A stretch of 64,000 bases of DNA from Cyanobacteria bacterium P01_F01_bin.150 (GTDB taxonomy: Bacteria; Cyanobacteriota; Cyanobacteriia; CAKZMO01). A program made the translations under genes and the position numbers. The stretch spans positions 32,001 to 96,000 of the forward strand of contig JBCCYL010000013.1 of NCBI GenBank assembly GCA_039189765.1. The letters run 5' to 3'. The stretch's first letter is position 1. Each line of letters starts with the position of its first letter. Shown in pieces: positions 53,401 to 58,572 of this stretch. The notes below the pieces were generated by a model, which was not told the origin of the DNA, made no database searches, and saw only the letters and a program-made list of their open reading frames with translations.

Positions 53401-55751
53401 CCCTCCAGCAACAACCCCTGAAATTTACAGTGTTGTTTTCTTCTGTATCAGGGATTATTCCTAGCTTAGCCAGTGGGCAAAGTGATTATGCGCTGGCCAA
53501 TGCTTATATGGACTATGCGGCAGAGGCGATCGCCACTAATATTGCCACCGATATTGACACTAATATCGCCACTGATGATGTAGTAAGTATCCAGTGGCCA
53601 AGCTGGCAGGAAACAGGCATGGGGGCGGCAAATAGCAGAGCCTATCAAGAAACAGGTCTGCTCCATCACAGTAACCAACAGGGACTAGAACTGTTAGACC
53701 ATATTCTTACCCACAAAATTGGACCTGTGGTTTTGCCTGCATGGGTCAATTCCGCACACTGGAATCCACAACGATTGATGCAGCACCACCGTCAGCAAGC
53801 CAGTCAATCACCACCGTCAAGCACATCACTATCAAGCAAACCCTCCTTAAATACGCCATCGTCAAGCCTCAATCATCAAGGGGCGGCGATCGCAACGACT
53901 TCCAGCCAAGGCAGTGTGTCTCATCGTATGACGCTAAAAGACTTAGTTAACCTATTTGCTCAAGAATTGGGTATGCCAGCGCAAAAATTAGACCTAAATA
54001 AATCCTTTGCAGACTATGGCCTAGATTCTATTTGGCTAGCGCAACTGGCTAGCAAATTAAACCAGCAGCTTGCCGAGCGTTTAGACCCTTCCATCCTGTA
54101 CGAATATTCTTCATTACATTCCCTAGCATCCTGGCTAGCCAGTGAACAGGCTCCAACCCTTAAAGCCAACGCTGACCATAATCCCAATCCACAAAACCCC
54201 GTAGAACCAAATCCTATCGATCGGCCACATCATACATCAGCTCAAACGGTTGCTAATCAGCAGGTATCGACCCAGCAACAGACATCATTTATTCCGGCTC
54301 ATCAATCCAATACCAGTGGCACTAGCGCTCATGAGTCATCTCATGCATCACGGGCATTGGATATTGCCGTAGTAGGCATGTCCTGTCGGTTTCCAGGCGC
54401 AAATAATATCGATGAATATTGGTCCCTCCTCTCCAGCGGCAAAAACTCCATCCGTCCCGTTCCAGCAGAACGTTGGTCAAAAGAAACGCCGTTTTATGCG
54501 GGATTGATGGATAACATCAACTATTTTGATCCAGACTTTTTTCTTATTCCGCCAGAGGATGCAAAAATCATGGATCCTCAAGCGCTTTTAGTGTTGGAGG
54601 AAAGCTTAAATTTATTCTGTCATGCGGGTTATGCGCTGGATGAAATTAAAGGACGGGCGATCGGCGTTTATTTAGGTGCGCGCAGTCAGCATCGTGTCAA
54701 TGCCTCTGATCTTTATCAAGCCAGAAATCCGATTGTCGGCGCACAGAATTATCTGGCCACTCATATCTCACAGTTTTTTGATCTCCAAGGACCAAGTCTG
54801 GTTATTGATACAGCCTGCTCGTCAGCTTTAGTGGGGATGAATTTTGCTGTCCAATCATTGCTTAGTGGTGAAATTGACGCAGCAGTGGTTGGCGGGGTTA
54901 GTCTGCTTGCAGATGAGGTTGCCCATCAGATGTTCGAGCAACGCAATCTTCTAAATCAGGACGCCGAATTTCATATTTTTGATCAGCGAGCATCTGGTAT
55001 CACTTTGGCTGAAGGCGTTGGACTGGTTCTATTAAAAACAGTGCAGCAAGCACAGCGGGATGGGGATCAAATTTATGCGGTTATTAAGGGCTTGGCCATC
55101 AATAACGACGGTCGTACCCCAGGCCCAGCCACGCCCAATATTAAAGCGCTCAAAGATGTGATGCAGCGGGCGCTGGGGCAAAGCGCCATACAGCCAAAGG
55201 ATATTGCTCATATCGAAGCGAATGGCTCCGGTTCTGAAGTCACCGATTTACTGGAACTCAAAGCCATTGAAGCCATCTATCGAAATGATAATCAGGCACC
55301 CTGTAGTTTAGGGTCTATCAAGCCCAATATCGGACACCCGCTATGTGCTGAGGGGATTGCTGGTTTTATCAAGCTGGTGTGTATGCTGAAGCATCAACAA
55401 CGAGTTCCCTTTTTATCTGGGCAAACGCCTCTGATGCACTACGATTTGAACACTTCACCGTTTTATTTCTGTCGCCAATCAGATGCCTGGACAGAGTCGC
55501 CCTTGATTGCACTGAATTGTTTTGCCGATGGTGGGACCAACGCCCACGTCATTTTAGCGCAATGGCCCCAGGCCGCAGTTGATCCGCAACGGCAACCTAT
55601 CATACCCCCCACTCTCAAACGGACTAATGTCTATGGCAATATGCTCTCGCAAGCTATTGCAAATGAAAAAATTGCAAATGGAGACGTTGCAAATGGAAAA
55701 ATTGCGCGACAGCGTATGGAAAATTTGAGCCTCAATCCTTGGTGGGGGTAA
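41490..55751 (+). CDS. trans-AT PKS (KR-ACP-KS0-oMT-ACP-KS-KR-ACP-KS-KR-ACP-KS0)
   Basis: Likely ATG at 41490 with GGAG at 41478-41481 (the ORF track uses TTG at 41451). KRs GGLGGLG, GGTGGLG x2; KS0 with EAAAQGS; oMT LDIGCGHG; ACP LGINSM; KSs HGTST and HGTGT; final KS0 EANGSGS/GHPLCAEG; ends NPWWG*. No TE. Confidence 0.95.
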   Translation: MIAYRQSRLTSQSSQYSRHLVIFCEPDGITQDTITNGIETVDCLVWQASGSIAERFQHYASQLFLELRQLLTHPQETKVLLQVVIRDLPEHQVFAGLAGLLLTARQENPNLVGQILKLSSNDSPGTIVAKLKNNAQLPLDQRIDYHNGKRRVAGWEEIQVSDGAISIPWKEKGTYLITGGLGGLGLLFTQEIIRQINGGTVILVGRSPLNPAKQKILKHIQDSCGKKHIALDYVQADVCNSKDTERLIETINHKFGDLNGIIHAAGVIHDNFILKKTVQDLEKVLAPKVIGLVNLDEATKEQPLDFFFFCSSLAGSIGNVGQADYACANAFMDCYARYRNHLLPLQQRQGRALSINWPLWRDGGMQVDAVHEQMMAQSIGLFAMPTSAGMKALYKAFASNQDQVMVLEGNLAQLKQAFLQTPHPPQPPIGNGGSPSGPPPCQGGVKGGDSSQEGTKEDNLDPKKLQQKTLEKLKTLFAEMTKLPLDRVDVDEPLDSYGIDSILITQLNQKLTEGLGSVSKTLFYEFQTLAELAHHLAIAYGDACFKWTHVEQTHVEQTHLDSAIAPPSSHQMTGSDIAADALPVFDQPAIKTDDVPKKLTNGHAVVQQESLDGHFRTQNNSTQQPIAIIGLSGRYPQAKTVTEFWQNLINAEHCISEIPRNRWDWKRHYHADPNEAVKLGKSYTKWGGFLDDFDQFDPLFFNITPREAENIDPQERLFLQECWSALEDAGYSPSNLSADLRQRVGVFAGITKQGFNLYRTDLGKREHNGKRYPEFPATSFASLVNRVSYHLNLQGPSFPVDTMCSSSLVAIHEACEYIRSGKGDMAVVGGVNIYAHPSTYLELSIGRFISSSSICAAFEKDGEGFVPGEGVGAVILKAYDQAVQDRDSIYALIRGSAVNHDGRTNGYKTPNPGPKAMVIRQSLQNSGVEARSISYIEAAAQGSDVGDAVEAKALTEVFGDRHNVEGSYRIGSVKPNIGHGEAVSGMAQLTKVILSLTHRTLVPTLRSRELSPSIDFEQLPFELQQDLDEWKPIQVDGVDIPRRAGVVSIGAGGTNASLILEEYVEEYAEEYAKNSQRHTNPTSKSAPGHKQQVPILFVLSAKNKTCLEQYVRDWLHYLKHSLETGQSLDLASMAYTLQMGRESMSCRLGFVIQQVVELIDYLTHWLNNHELGERGVYGDTTRSKLKNPEAVTALVNTGDSNNAWELATLWAQGNAIPWDQWHGGQKLIRLNGLPTYPFTSRRFWISQSDPGHLIDTSQVDANKHEPQVDANKSESQVDVNKAVEFYTQLSEDCDNVFQEEYLTFGAFPQRVPGFSMTRIALNGEQYPGEIEMVRKSQRELRQVLFYRENFDQVHTFLDIGCGHGTDVIQIAALYPHIQTHGFTITQSQAVLGNQRIKSMNLESHARIHHKDSSKDKFPDNCDIVLGIEVTFHIRDKDALFQKMADALSENGKILLMDYISNLRGSIVDPNVEISIPTQQQWIDLLSKHDLIIDEIIDVSTEVSNFLYDPEHAENTKHLPKVSQDTFRNYANQAVSLEKGWITYCLLKLKRDTHRSEQERREHNAQLISHQTPYVHALEEMLRLGHIPYPLTGGLKMAQESVSNPVEPPLDLPQLRYALSTIFASTLRFAAEDLQAIERLPFNDLGINSMNAVELLEAINTAFDLHLPTSLVFECPCLEDLAEHIQVELAQKPTVPEMPQLSVAQGNRQLSAPTTPPPQSTSNDDIAIIGLSCRCAGAKNQAQFWQVISQGKDCIEEVSNPEWLDYLATHSPEDFTIRYGILPDLDYFDPLFFRISPKEAKAMDATQRVLLEECYRAIEDAGYNPSGLKQQAVGTYIGAMGGTALGKGFSHLDMLGAETSVLAARMAYFLDLKGPALAINTACSSSLVAIEVASQALKNGEINLAIAGGVTLYQHPGTFISMHNAGMLSPTGQCRPFDNNADGIVVGDGVGVVILKRLQDAKRDRDSIYGIIRGCGTNQDGQTSSLTVPSFLSQSELETSVYKKANIQVEDLQYIEAHGTSTKLGDPIEIHALSKSFQSFTSKSQFCAIGSLKANVGHTTAAAGVLSVIKVLLGMKHQQLPPSIHFEAGNKHIDFDNSPVYVNTRLKAWPQNAQGSRLAAVSSFGFSGTNAHLVLEQYSSSPDEPINDNGSDGNHKKLTPRVFLLSAESEPELQHYANRVKVYLEENPDVSFEHFLYTFHVGRAAFTYRLAFVVDDHQSLIQQLAQWLGEGAKARGQGESAIASTKEEQAFIQSLIVGRKVEKLAQLWQQGTSIDWMAFYQPGDYHRLAGLPTYPFAREYFGADQDRPTQDGEIQHSQIQDYSPKSRSSAGTLICYPYWQEKSAVATSNPSAYAKHLVFLCGVSHISAADIEALMPGVECIDLCASDPLAASDGEPLVTLYRESFTYVFETIQTILANRVRGKIFIQCIVPQQTQLQCFSALAGMLKTVQQENPKVLGQILEVSANETQNAVLKMLKENSACPDDKQIRYCQEQRTVLGWQELTVSEQACKTPWREDGVYLVTGGTGGLGLIFAEEIAKNTQRSTLILSGRSPLNADQKTAFFNRLENLGATVDYQQADISRKNDVDRLMQYITTRYGSLNGILHCAGITRDNFLIKKTSAEFQSVLAPKVAGVVYLDAASKAINLDVFVLFSSLSGAVGNAGQADYATANAFMDAFASHRNALANSGQRYGQTLSINWPFWQAGGMKLEAHREAAMLQSVGLGTMETAQGIDALVKGLASGQSQILVASGNVPQLRQWLCPDSLFVSPPSDLSTAEPQTDNAQLHQYSSHLSSEKSLTELTSTDKQRLQEKTLMQLKSLLGEAFDLSPDRIKSHDTFERYGIDSVIITQLNQTLETIFPEISKTLFFEYQTSDALVAYLIEEYLQECLTWTGLDAETNAPTADLLPDRPEPSGDRLQVTMERPAPTIGISQGQEAIAIIGVSARFAQADTLQAYWDNLKAGKSCVGEIPANRWSLDNFFVEDMDRAIAQRKSYCKWGSFLDGFAEFDPLFFGIPPRDVLSMDPQERLFLQTAWEALEDAGYTRDTLREIYQQQVGVFAGITKTGFDLYGPELWKRGQQAMPHTSFSSVANRTSYFLNLKGPSMPIDTMCSSALTAIHEACEHLRRRDCQLALAGGVNLYLHPSSYVQMCAMRMLSPDGQCKAFGQGGNGFVPGEGVGIVLLKPLSEAIQARDNIYAVIRASAVNHGGKTHGYTVPNPVAQAELIHQTLQKGDIDARSISYVEAHGTGTKLGDPIEITGLTQAFKRETADTGFCAIGSAKSNVGHLEAASGMAGLCKILLQLKHRQLAPSLYTEALNPNIDFNKTPFVVQQTLTPWEKPVVTVNGKTQEYPRRAGLSSFGAGGSNAHLIIEESPQQVFKNVHNSPSQGAIKEDIDKPVAIVLSAKNAEQLMQMAQNLCSFLITEDASQSLQLADMAYTLQIGREAMEERLALIVNSRESLEQKLTAFVEGQDNIAALYRGRDRGREQPDSDLLSDVATTAEFASIIDSWIASHQLDRLLKLWVKGLVIDWQKLYIQPQHQHQPQHQPQRISLPTYPFAKDNYWFDSCFEPTELNQTDPDHLHLLGTEPKIGATVDNAVPHKICYLQKQWLLTPSQPDDVYSQNNGHPQSATARKIAILSTQETRLLAEVLAEELPSSHIIELEDIKTFLGQGNTDWQAYGSCIDLVGCGQGEAHNSSLDWIEWLQQLVKNTAQTDLTLLGVTRGLESFQNSAINLCGASRAGLYRMLASEYSHVQSRHVDMDPTLKTAALAAQIAHEFFLNDENCEICYRDHKRYCAHLAESALNPTKRSIADLQFSPEDVLLITGGTGGLGLLCAQHFVHHYGVKRLVLTGRTPLPPREQWDASHRVHDDRVLQKIQAIQSLESQGIEVQVLALDLSNKAEVQTSLGQITETLGAIAGLIHCAGIVDSDTPAFVRKSIPAIAQVLEPKITGLQSVLDTLAIGQQRALQQQPLQQQPLKFTVLFSSVSGIIPSLASGQSDYALANAYMDYAAEAIATNIATDIDTNIATDDVVSIQWPSWQETGMGAANSRAYQETGLLHHSNQQGLELLDHILTHKIGPVVLPAWVNSAHWNPQRLMQHHRQQASQSPPSSTSLSSKPSLNTPSSSLNHQGAAIATTSSQGSVSHRMTLKDLVNLFAQELGMPAQKLDLNKSFADYGLDSIWLAQLASKLNQQLAERLDPSILYEYSSLHSLASWLASEQAPTLKANADHNPNPQNPVEPNPIDRPHHTSAQTVANQQVSTQQQTSFIPAHQSNTSGTSAHESSHASRALDIAVVGMSCRFPGANNIDEYWSLLSSGKNSIRPVPAERWSKETPFYAGLMDNINYFDPDFFLIPPEDAKIMDPQALLVLEESLNLFCHAGYALDEIKGRAIGVYLGARSQHRVNASDLYQARNPIVGAQNYLATHISQFFDLQGPSLVIDTACSSALVGMNFAVQSLLSGEIDAAVVGGVSLLADEVAHQMFEQRNLLNQDAEFHIFDQRASGITLAEGVGLVLLKTVQQAQRDGDQIYAVIKGLAINNDGRTPGPATPNIKALKDVMQRALGQSAIQPKDIAHIEANGSGSEVTDLLELKAIEAIYRNDNQAPCSLGSIKPNIGHPLCAEGIAGFIKLVCMLKHQQRVPFLSGQTPLMHYDLNTSPFYFCRQSDAWTESPLIALNCFADGGTNAHVILAQWPQAAVDPQRQPIIPPTLKRTNVYGNMLSQAIANEKIANGDVANGKIARQRMENLSLNPWWG
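42757..42833. repeat. palindromic dispersed repeat doublet (CCCCCTT..AAGGGGG family), copy B
   Basis: acccccctcagccccccattggtaatgggggaag followed by ccggtcctcccccttgccaagggggagttaaagggggt, in a KR-ACP linker. Confidence 0.85.

Positions 55752-58572: not shown

What the first reader, a model, noticed from the sequence alone, without database searches (positions are those of the whole stretch)
54360..56320. Assembly line ends mid-bimodule: orphan KS0 with docking tail, no DH partner or TE downstream
Seen: the last KS has EANGSGS and GHPLCAEG, follows a KR with AGIVDSDTPAFVRK, and ends in a short tail ...LNPWWG; the next 8 kb hold no PKS gene. Knowledge: KS-KR-ACP-KS0 / DH-ACP is the split dehydrating bimodule that makes Z-alkenes (bacillaene, gladiolin), joined by a C-terminal dehydratase-docking tail. 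Inference: the final subunit (DH-ACP, pyran synthase module, remaining extensions, TE) lies upstream or at another locus, or has been lost. The cluster would then be rearranged, split or making a truncated product.
Basis: partly seen in the sequence, partly recalled or inferred. Interest (0 to 1): 0.75.

Follow-up and report, generated by a model that had tools for sequence, protein, structure and literature searches.

The report
Luminaolide-type PKS gene separated from partner
The last giant polyketide-synthase gene in this cyanobacterial window stops in the middle of a two-part module, as it does in every relative, but the gene for the other half is not next door as usual and seems to lie elsewhere on the same contig.

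Summary
ORF D (41451-55751) ends KS-KR-ACP-KS0. The KS0 has a Cys-Asn-His triad and a 67-residue tail ending NPWWG. The remaining 8.2 kb hold only NACHT, WD40 and AAA genes on the other strand.

This is not a truncated line. The window is a trans-AT PKS of the swinholide/scytophycin/tolytoxin/luminaolide family, closest in layout to luminaolide. D is the SwiE/LumD-type subunit, which ends at this KS0 plus tail in all 10 relatives aligned. This is the normal split of a type A dehydrating bimodule.

What is unusual is gene order. In 7 of 7 cyanobacterial relatives fetched, a gene starting DH-ACP-KS follows within about 420 nt on the same strand. Here it does not, and no remnant is left.

A matching partner exists. 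P0133 (6029 aa) reads DH-ACP-KS-DH-DH(PS)-KR-ACP-KS-KR-ACP-KS-KR-ACP-KS0-ACP-TE, the same order as LumE. It is recorded on a contig of 105,892 nt, exactly the length of the contig carrying D.

The best reading is a rearranged, non-colinear but complete cluster. I could not determine where the partner gene sits, and I could not exclude a misassembly. This is a new member of a known family and of modest interest.

The parts
2..6097 (+). ORF A (5' open): the C-terminal 2031 aa of a LumA/ScpC/TtoC-type first subunit, ...KS-KR-MT-ACP-KS0.
   Evidence: Pfam. It is 67-69% identical over its whole length to residues ~2830-4930 of P0231-P0234 and ends at the same point. The KS0 reads FESQAMGS.
6072..22526 (+). 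ORF B (5484 aa), LumB/ScpD-type subunit: linker-MT-ACP-ACP-KS-ACP-KS-DH-KR-MT-ACP-ER-KS-DH-?-KR.
   Evidence: Pfam. It is 66-67% identical to P0263 (Anabaena sp. UHCC 0451) and P0257.
22614..41414 (+). ORF C (6266 aa), LumC/Tto2E-type subunit: MT-ACP-KS-KR-MT-ACP-KS-KR-ACP-KS-?-KR-MT-ACP-ACP-KS.
   Evidence: Pfam. It is 63-75% identical to P0292. It is fused to the next subunit in L003 and L004 and separate in L001 and L002.
41451..55751 (+). ORF D (4766 aa), SwiE/MisE/LumD-type subunit: KR-ACP-KS0-MT-ACP-KS-KR-ACP-KS-KR-ACP-KS0-tail.
   Evidence: Pfam. It is 69-73% identical over its full length to 10 relatives, including P0024 (4462 aa, the size of SwiE in Table S3A of PMC5772238) and P0032 (Ca. 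Entotheonella serta).
50286..54137 (+). First half of the dehydrating bimodule: elongating KS (50286-51605), linker, KR (52929-53687, contains AGIVDSDTPAFVRK) and ACP (53940-54137).
54354..55565 (+). Terminal non-elongating KS0 with triad Cys4456 (54816) / Asn4591 (55221) / His4629 (55335) and no flanking subdomain.
   Evidence: The AlphaFold2 model has pTM 0.86 and a confident KS core. The best solved relatives are 4opf_A and 7zma_A.
55566..55748 (+). C-terminal tail, a dehydratase-docking (DHD)-like region. Proximal patch QRQPIIPPTLKRTNV; terminal patch NPWWG.
   Evidence: Both patches are conserved in 11 of 11 E-type proteins. The same two-patch layout is found in 48 of 58 KS-terminal tails of other trans-AT PKSs, including B. 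subtilis PksL. The last 36 residues have pLDDT below 50.
55657..55705 (+). Three copies of a 15-nt tandem repeat inside the tail (IANEK/IANGD/VANGK). It gives an 11-residue insertion that is absent from all 10 relatives.
55752..56319 (.). Intergenic gap between convergent genes. This is where relatives carry the start of the DH-ACP-KS...TE gene. It contains three HIP1-bearing palindromic repeats (56203-56287).
   Evidence: No terminator-like site was found and there is no DH remnant.
56320..62424 (-). Boundary genes that are not part of the PKS: NACHT NTPase (56320-58572), an ORF without family match (58790-59374), a WD40 protein (59551-60816) and an AAA ATPase (61081-62424).

Best explanation
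The window holds most of a luminaolide/tolytoxin-type trans-AT polyketide synthase from a cyanobacterium.

ORF D is the subunit that ends, by design, in the middle of a type A dehydrating bimodule. Its last KS-KR-ACP extends the chain and reduces it to a beta-hydroxyacyl thioester. The Cys-Asn-His KS0 cannot condense; it hands the chain to the ACP of the next protein. That protein's N-terminal DH then dehydrates it, presumably giving the cis double bond of the dihydropyran ring.

The 67-residue tail after the KS0 is the docking element that recruits that DH.

The next protein exists. P0133 reads DH-ACP-KS-DH-PS-KR-ACP-KS-KR-ACP-KS-KR-ACP-KS0-ACP-TE, the same order as LumE. Its gene has been moved away from the 3' end of D: it is either upstream of the window or more than 8.2 kb downstream on the same 105,892-nt contig.

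The cluster is therefore rearranged and non-colinear. The line is not truncated, and the two halves pair through protein docking.

Shown: domain orders, the KS0 triad, tail conservation, adjacency in relatives, and the existence and architecture of P0133.

Inferred: that P0133 lies on the same contig, that the tail binds its DH, the geometry of the alkene, and the product.
For: 1. Family. D is 69-73% identical over its full length to 10 SwiE/MisE/LumD-type proteins. A matches ScpC/LumA-type proteins, B matches ScpD and C matches P0292 at 63-75%.

2. KS0 count. There are four KS0s: three in the window and one in P0133. The swinholide paper reports four as well (PMC5772238, section 'Swinholide biosynthesis gene cluster').

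3. Subunit sizes. B/C/D/P0133 are 5484/6266/4766/6029 aa. LumB/C/D/E are 5032/5775/4503/5707 aa (Table S5).

4. Normal subunit end. All 11 aligned proteins stop 38-67 residues after the KS0 with ...PWW.

5. Adjacency in relatives. In L001-L007, 7 of 7 have a large same-strand PKS ORF starting 3-417 nt after the stop. It begins with a DH carrying HxxxGxxxxP.

6. Partner. P0133 is 67% identical over 99% of the first 1200 aa of the Tolypothrix partner and 63-70% identical over its full length to six relatives. Its domain order is identical to P0126 (5707 aa, P. paucivesiculata) and P0124, with a TE GYSLGG motif and precomputed PF00975.

P0133 and the window's own P0002 both list a longest contig of 105,892 nt. 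The same rule holds for four relatives' pairs: 135634, 66670, 365773 and 33567.

8. Bimodule definition. Type A is KS-KR-ACP-KS0//DH-ACP with a Cys-Asn-His KS0, usually split after the KS0 (PMC8456789, passages).

9. DHD definition. About 70 aa after a KS that lacks the flanking subdomain, disordered, with two DH-contacting regions (review PMC9113145, passages). The tail here fits these features.

10. No sign of a cross-organism chimera. HIP1 occurs at 0.67-0.77 per kb in the PKS and 1.45 per kb downstream. GC is 0.465-0.486 against 0.467. Tetranucleotide correlation is r = 0.84-0.88 across the junction and 0.87-0.92 within the PKS.
Against: - The link between P0133 and the window rests only on equal contig length and a similar divergence from relatives. 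No DNA of P0133's gene was seen.
- The window's genome is not in genome contigs (best hit 67%), so the other 41.9 kb of the contig could not be read.
- The full-length form of ORF A was not found among proteins of 3556-5000 aa. The window's position in the contig, and the side on which the partner lies, are therefore unknown.
- No trans-AT gene lies in the window.
- The source is apparently a metagenome-assembled contig, and all 7 relatives are adjacent, so an assembly error remains possible.
- Docking was not tested.
- The KR stereotype could not be assigned.
Confidence: 0.75

Rival explanations
1. Assembly artefact. In the real genome the partner gene follows D directly, as in all relatives, and the contig was joined wrongly in the gap at 55752-56319.
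For: All 7 of 7 relatives are adjacent. The partner protein is recorded from an uncultured, metagenome-assembled source. PKS clusters are repetitive and prone to misjoins (general knowledge). The gap carries short repeated HIP1 palindromes.
Against: D is complete to its conserved last residues and stop codon. A misjoin would therefore have to fall exactly in the short intergenic space, not in a long PKS repeat. The repeats there are only 13-30 nt. Composition is continuous across the junction. P0133 is recorded as a complete 6029-aa protein starting with Met, not as a fragment cut at a contig end.
Confidence: 0.12
2. Insertion variant of the main reading. The partner gene still lies downstream on the same strand, but a block of at least 8.2 kb of unrelated, opposite-strand genes (NACHT, WD40, AAA and others) has been inserted between the two.
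For: The contig extends 41.9 kb beyond the window and the window's place in it is unknown. Full-length ORF A was not found at 3556-5000 aa, which would also fit a contig that starts inside gene A and so has most of its spare length downstream. In the luminaolide locus L005, two DDE transposase genes sit at that cluster's own breakpoint.
Against: No transposase, integrase or flanking repeat was seen in 55752-64000. The trans-AT and the first ~2900 aa of A must also fit outside the window.
Confidence: 0.25
3. Real truncation. The partner was lost from this cluster, P0133 belongs to another cluster or organism, and the line stalls at the KS0 or releases a shortened product.
For: There is no DH, TE or remnant within 8.2 kb. 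The contig-length link to P0133 is indirect.
Against: An exact match of 105,892 nt would be an unlikely coincidence, and P0133 shows the same 63-70% distance to relatives as D does at 69-73%. All four window ORFs are intact over 18.5 kaa, with catalytic motifs kept. The docking tail keeps both conserved patches, which is not expected once a partner is gone.
Confidence: 0.05

Closest known systems
Luminaolide cluster of Planktothrix paucivesiculata PCC 9631 (LumA-E; locus L005, proteins P0233 and P0126).
   Same: Five-protein layout with matching domain orders. The LumD-type subunit ends KS0 plus ...NPWWGDST. The LumE-type subunit reads DH-ACP-KS-DH-PS-KR-ACP-KS-KR-ACP-KS-KR-ACP-KS0-ACP-TE. Sizes are given in Table S5 of PMC5772238.
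   Different: Identity is about 65-70%. The window's proteins are 5-9% longer. In lum the break in gene order lies between LumC and LumD, with divergent operons and transposases between them, and LumD-LumE are adjacent. Here C-D are adjacent and D is parted from its E-type partner.
[quoted passage not shown] 2018, PMC5772238, sections and supplement read; Ueoka et al. 2015 known only through that paper's citations).
   Same: Same family. The SwiE/MisE-type subunit is 69-72% identical to D, and the family has four KS0s and a DH-PS pair in the last subunit. The paper reports gene-order differences within the family (swiC inverted).
   Different: Their last subunits are about 8000 aa, two modules longer. 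SwiC and MisC differ from the ScpC/LumA type seen here. In the Table S3 listings for swi and scp the E and F genes follow each other on one strand.
Type A dehydrating bimodule (bacillaene PksL//PksM, gladiolin GbnD4//GbnD5, internal form in hangtaimycin HtmA1; PMC8456789, passages read).
   Same: KS-KR-ACP-KS0//DH-ACP, a Cys-Asn-His KS0, and a split after the KS0.
   Different: In the described cases the two genes are neighbours, or the bimodule is fused in one protein. Here the halves are not adjacent. KR type and alkene geometry were not established here.
Dehydratase-docking (DHD) domain (Jenner et al. 2018, seen only as summarised in review PMC9113145).
   Same: It sits at the C terminus of a KS at a KS/DH junction, is 67 aa against about 70 aa, follows a KS without a flanking subdomain, has a low-confidence distal part, and has two conserved patches.
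   Different: The terminal patch is NPWW rather than the (M/I)FWKTF(K/N) of the Bacillus PksL-type tails. An 11-residue repeat insertion is unique to this tail. Binding was not tested.

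Membership tests
Swinholide/misakinolide/scytophycin/tolytoxin/luminaolide trans-AT PKS family | No AT domains integrated in the PKS proteins. | tested here: met
   No Acyl_transf_1 match in any of the 62 overlapping windows covering ORFs A-D (E <= 1e-5 or 1e-6). By contrast, the free-standing AT of L007 scores 1.1e-37.
Swinholide/misakinolide/scytophycin/tolytoxin/luminaolide trans-AT PKS family | Each subunit is orthologous and colinear with the family's subunits. 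| tested here: met
   D is 69-73% identical to 10 proteins. A is 67-69%, B 66-67% and C 63-75% identical to their counterparts. P0133 is 63-70% identical to six.
Swinholide/misakinolide/scytophycin/tolytoxin/luminaolide trans-AT PKS family | Four non-elongating KS0s, the last in the terminal part of the final subunit. | tested here: met
   The KS alignment shows His replaced in A_1586-2016, D_636-1076, D_4302-4705 and P0133_4974-5407. The description is in PMC5772238.
Swinholide/misakinolide/scytophycin/tolytoxin/luminaolide trans-AT PKS family | Adjacent DH and pyran-synthase domains in the final subunit. | tested here: inconclusive
   P0133 has two neighbouring DH-like domains (1068-1382 and 1411-1690), aligned with those of LumE. 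Pyran-synthase motifs were not examined.
Swinholide/misakinolide/scytophycin/tolytoxin/luminaolide trans-AT PKS family | A free-standing trans-AT gene in the cluster. | not testable with these tools
   None in the window.
Type A dehydrating bimodule | Domain order KS-KR-ACP-KS0 // DH-ACP, split after the KS0. | tested here: met
   D ends KS-KR-ACP-KS0. P0133 and all 7 relatives' next genes start DH-ACP-KS.
Type A dehydrating bimodule | KS0 with Cys-Asn-His in place of Cys-His-His. | tested here: met
   C4456 / N4591 / H4629, invariant in 11 of 11.
Type A dehydrating bimodule | A-type ketoreductase and a Z double bond in the product. | tested here: inconclusive
   The KR alignment places Ser at the diagnostic Asp column, but a 2-residue insertion makes the register ambiguous, and no Trp motif is present. 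The product is unknown.
Dehydratase-docking (DHD) domain | A region of about 70 aa appended to a KS at a KS/DH subunit junction, where the KS lacks the flanking subdomain. | tested here: met
   67 residues follow GGTNAH. PF22336/PF22621 are absent after this KS and present after the other 12 of 13.
Dehydratase-docking (DHD) domain | Sequence likeness to tails at other KS0/DH junctions. | tested here: met
   48 of 58 KS-terminal tails among the 119 hits match both of my ad hoc patch patterns, including PksL (P0104). The terminal KS has Asn in at least 36 of 58.
Dehydratase-docking (DHD) domain | Little stable structure when alone. | tested here: inconclusive
   In the AlphaFold2 model the proximal patch (D 4700-4730) has pLDDT 82-86 and the last 36 residues have pLDDT 32-47. 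pLDDT is only a proxy for disorder.
Dehydratase-docking (DHD) domain | Binds the surface of the downstream N-terminal DH and is needed for acyl transfer. | not testable with these tools
A bench assay is needed.

The most novel reading that the evidence does not exclude
The rearrangement is real. A type A dehydrating bimodule is then split not only between two proteins but between two separate transcription units, so the Z-alkene step and everything after it depend purely on post-translational docking. The docking tail carries a lineage-specific 11-residue repeat insertion. The line makes a new luminaolide-type macrodiolide in an uncultured cyanobacterium outside Planktothrix.
Probability: 0.45. 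Interest if true: 0.4.

Novelty: new member of a known kind. Interest (0 to 1): 0.25.

Why it matters
For genome mining, a PKS gene that ends in KS0 plus a short tail is not a broken assembly line. It is a standard subunit boundary, and the partner should be sought elsewhere before a cluster is called truncated.

If the gene order is real, this cluster adds a fourth arrangement to a family already known to vary:
- colinear in mis, scp and tto;
- swiC inverted in swi;
- divergent halves in lum and tto2;
- and here, D separated from its partner.

It would also be a natural case in which the two halves of a dehydrating bimodule are no longer co-transcribed. That bears on how far docking tails alone keep trans-AT lines in order.

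The cluster also extends the actin-binding macrolide family to another, divergent cyanobacterial lineage (about 65-73% identity to all known members).

Tried and rejected
- **Remnant of the partner gene in the window.** tblastn with the first 450 aa of three relatives' partners found only paralogous ACP and KS matches and nothing for the DH.
- **Mobile-element explanation for the junction.** No transposase or integrase appears in 55752-64000, and there are only short HIP1 repeats. No terminator-like site was found.
- **Cross-organism chimera.** Composition gives no sign of one. That check cannot detect a misjoin within one genome.
- **Reading the rest of the contig.** The single genome-contig scan returned relatives only, with a best identity of 67%, so the window's genome is not in that collection.
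- **Full-length ORF A.** The search covered only proteins of 3556-5000 aa and found orthologues but no identical protein.
- **Docking prediction.** I submitted P0133 DH residues 1-300 with D residues 4698-4766. There is no verdict of any kind.
- **KR stereotype of the last KR.** The alignment register is ambiguous.
- **Solved structure for the tail.** No PDB chain matches the query beyond model residue 463 of 477, and the best two matches stop at 436 and 417.
- **Swinholide-type assignment, considered and rejected.** ORF A matches the formyltransferase/adenylation-bearing ScpC/LumA type, and P0133 has the short LumE layout rather than the ~8000-aa SwiF type.

Full report
**What is in the window.** Four large ORFs on the + strand fill positions 2-55751: A (5' open, at least 2031 aa), B (5484 aa), C (6266 aa) and D (4766 aa). 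GCGATCGC (HIP1) motifs occur throughout, which points to a cyanobacterium; that reading of HIP1 is my own knowledge.

Pfam on overlapping 450-aa windows gives these domain orders:
- A: ...KS-KR-MT-ACP-KS
- B: linker-MT-ACP-ACP-KS-ACP-KS-DH-KR-MT-ACP-ER-KS-DH-?-KR
- C: MT-ACP-KS-KR-MT-ACP-KS-KR-ACP-KS-?-KR-MT-ACP-ACP-KS
- D: KR-ACP-KS-MT-ACP-KS-KR-ACP-KS-KR-ACP-KS

No AT domain was found in any of the 62 windows, so this is a trans-AT PKS.

**The observation.** The last KS (D residues 4302-4705, window 54354-55565) has Cys4456, Asn4591 (HIEANGSGS) and His4629 (KPNIGHPLCAEG). The nine elongating KSs of the window read E(A/T)HGT(G/S)T or VTHGTGT. It follows a KR containing HCAGIVDSDTPAFVRK and an ACP.

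It is the only one of 13 KSs that is not followed by the RhiE-like/CurL-like linker. After GGTNAH come 67 residues ending LNPWWG, then the stop at 55749-55751.

The remaining 8.2 kb carry a NACHT NTPase, a WD40 protein, an AAA ATPase and three ORFs with no family match. All but one of these lie on the - strand, and none is related to PKSs.

**Which family.** The last 667 aa of D find ten proteins at 66-70% identity and 94-100% coverage. Over the full length they are 69-73% identical. They include P0024 from Nostoc sp. UHCC 0450 at 4462 aa, the size listed for SwiE in Table S3A of Humisto et al. 2018 (PMC5772238). They also include P0032 from Ca. Entotheonella serta.

ORF A matches the last ~2030 aa of four proteins of 4829-4934 aa that carry formyltransferase and adenylation domains (Anabaena sp. 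UHCC 0451, Planktothrix paucivesiculata, Scytonema sp. UIC 10036 and one unnamed). Identity is 67-69%, and A ends where they end. B matches the ER-bearing ScpD-type protein, and C matches P0292.

Subunit sizes B/C/D of 5484/6266/4766 aa parallel LumB/C/D at 5032/5775/4503 aa (Table S5 of the same paper). [quoted passage not shown]

**Ending at KS0 plus tail is normal.** All 11 aligned proteins stop 38-67 residues after the same KS0. Cys, Asn and His are invariant, as are two patches in the tail, QRQ(P/A)IxxPxL(K/N)R and PWW.

[quoted passage not shown] 2021, PMC8456789, passages).

The tail also fits the dehydratase-docking domain as summarised in the review PMC9113145 (passages). That domain is about 70 aa after a KS lacking the flanking subdomain, largely disordered, with two regions contacting the DH. 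I did not see Jenner et al. 2018 itself.

Three results here support that fit:
- Of the 119 other proteins returned, 58 end 9-98 residues after a KS.
- Of those 58, 48 match both of my ad hoc patterns: a proline-rich basic patch, then a terminal aromatic Trp patch. B. subtilis PksL (...MFWKTFK) is among them. At least 36 of the 58 have Asn at the first His position.
- An AlphaFold2 model of KS0 plus tail (19-row alignment, pTM 0.86) has a confident KS and proximal patch (pLDDT 82-86) and a low-confidence last 36 residues (pLDDT 32-47).

**What is unusual.** The one scan of representative genomes returned seven cyanobacterial loci with a true orthologue: Tolypothrix, Nostoc, Microcoleus, Anabaena sp. 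UHCC 0451, two Planktothrix and one MAG. The other 57 loci belong to other PKSs at 33-50% identity and were not used.

In 7 of 7, the gene ending ...NPWW(G...) is followed on the same strand, 3-417 nt after its stop, by an ORF of at least 3940 aa that runs off the locus. That ORF starts with a DH (HPIVKNHxAYGQALLPG). In the window this place is taken by a 568-nt gap and a convergent NACHT gene. No remnant of that DH exists anywhere in the window.

Gene order does vary in this family:
- swiC is inverted (PMC5772238).
- In the three Planktothrix-type loci, the LumD-type gene is preceded by divergent genes: the formyltransferase-MT-A-PCP loading subunit, and in L006 and L007 a free-standing AT (matched to Pfam only in L007) and PhyH dioxygenases (Pfam for L007), with a methyltransferase in each locus. 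L005 also has two DDE transposases.

But a break exactly at the KS0//DH junction was not seen in any relative.

**The partner exists.** I searched with the first 1200 aa of the Tolypothrix partner. Besides the relatives' own partners, this found P0133: 6029 aa, 67% identity, 99% coverage, with a thioesterase among its precomputed Pfam domains. Its longest contig is 105,892 nt, the same figure given for the window's own ORF D (P0002).

The same equality holds for four relatives' pairs, at 135634, 66670, 365773 and 33567 nt. Two of these I could check against locus records (L001, L002).

P0133 starts MEKEFVIHADHPIVTNHKAYGQELLPG. It reads DH-ACP-KS-DH-DH(PS)-KR-ACP-KS-KR-ACP-KS-KR-ACP-KS0-ACP-TE (GYSLGG). 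This is the same order as P0126 (5707 aa, the size of LumE) and P0124. It is 63-70% identical to six partners over its full length, much as D is to its orthologues.

With P0133 the line has 17 visible KSs, four of them KS0s, against the 19 KSs numbered for the family. That leaves about two for the unseen 5' part of A.

**Mechanism proposed.**
- Shown: the domain orders, motifs and conservation above.
- Inferred from the family and from PMC8456789: D's last KS-KR-ACP makes a beta-hydroxyacyl-ACP, the KS0 passes it to the ACP of P0133, and P0133's N-terminal DH dehydrates it. The next module (KS-DH-PS-KR-ACP) then builds the dihydropyran. In swinholide A that ring holds the C10=C11 olefin (Table S1). 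Its cis geometry follows from the six-membered ring and is my inference.
- Also inferred: the tail recruits the DH.

Because the two genes are no longer neighbours, pairing must rest on this docking.

**What remains open.**
- The position of P0133's gene. The contig has 41,892 nt outside the window, enough for the 18.1-kb gene on either side. Full-length A was not found among proteins of 3556-5000 aa. This fits a protein just over 5000 aa, since the window's proteins are 5-9% longer than Lum proteins. It also fits a gene cut by the contig end.
- Misassembly cannot be excluded without reads. The clean break after a complete gene and the continuous composition argue against it, but only weakly.
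- The trans-AT was not seen.
- The KR type is unresolved.
- Docking was not tested, because no complex prediction could be obtained.

**Verdict.** The 'orphan' is not orphaned, though. This is an ordinary subunit boundary in a known family, with an unusual and still unverified gene order. I rate it a new member of a known kind, of modest interest.

Noticed in passing
window 55657-55705: Three copies of a 15-nt tandem repeat inside the docking tail encode IANEK/IANGD/VANGK. They add 11 residues between the two conserved patches, and none of the 10 relatives has them.
   Followed up: partly
window 6072-6097: ORFs A and B overlap by 26 nt. The split falls between a KS0 and its flanking linker, so the linker opens ORF B. 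Relatives' first subunits end at the same residue, so this split is conserved and is not a frameshift.
   Followed up: yes
window 20472-21821 and 35214-36563: Two 450-aa stretches inside ORFs B and C gave no Pfam match at E <= 1e-6. They lie between a DH or KS-linker and a KR. They may be degenerate DH-like or structural regions; the swinholide paper mentions aberrant DHs in this family.
   Followed up: no
window 56320-62424 (- strand): A NACHT NTPase, a WD40 protein and an AAA ATPase lie in a row. The NACHT and AAA proteins weakly resemble NCBIfam antiphage models (EruA 41 bits against a cutoff of 1000; IteA 101 bits against a cutoff of 510), far below the cutoffs.
   Followed up: partly
window 56203-56287: Three copies of GAGGGGCGATCGC form two perfect 13-14-nt inverted repeats in the gap between the convergent genes. 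HIP1 density is 1.45 per kb downstream against 0.67-0.77 per kb in the PKS.
   Followed up: partly
L005:4060-5160 and L005:8247-9341: In the luminaolide locus of P. paucivesiculata, two DDE transposase genes lie between the divergent lumA and lumD genes, at that cluster's own break in gene order.
   Followed up: no
window ORFs B, C, D and P0133: Each subunit is 5-9% longer than its Lum counterpart (5484/6266/4766/6029 aa against 5032/5775/4503/5707 aa). The extra length appears to sit in repeat-rich interdomain linkers, such as THVEQTHVEQ and QVDANK-type repeats in D.
   Followed up: no
L003:2-28213 and L004:2-28165: In Microcoleus sp. C2D2 and Anabaena sp. UHCC 0451, the equivalents of ORFs C and D are one reading frame of more than 9380 aa. 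In the window, L001 and L002 they are two genes, 36-97 nt apart.
   Followed up: partly
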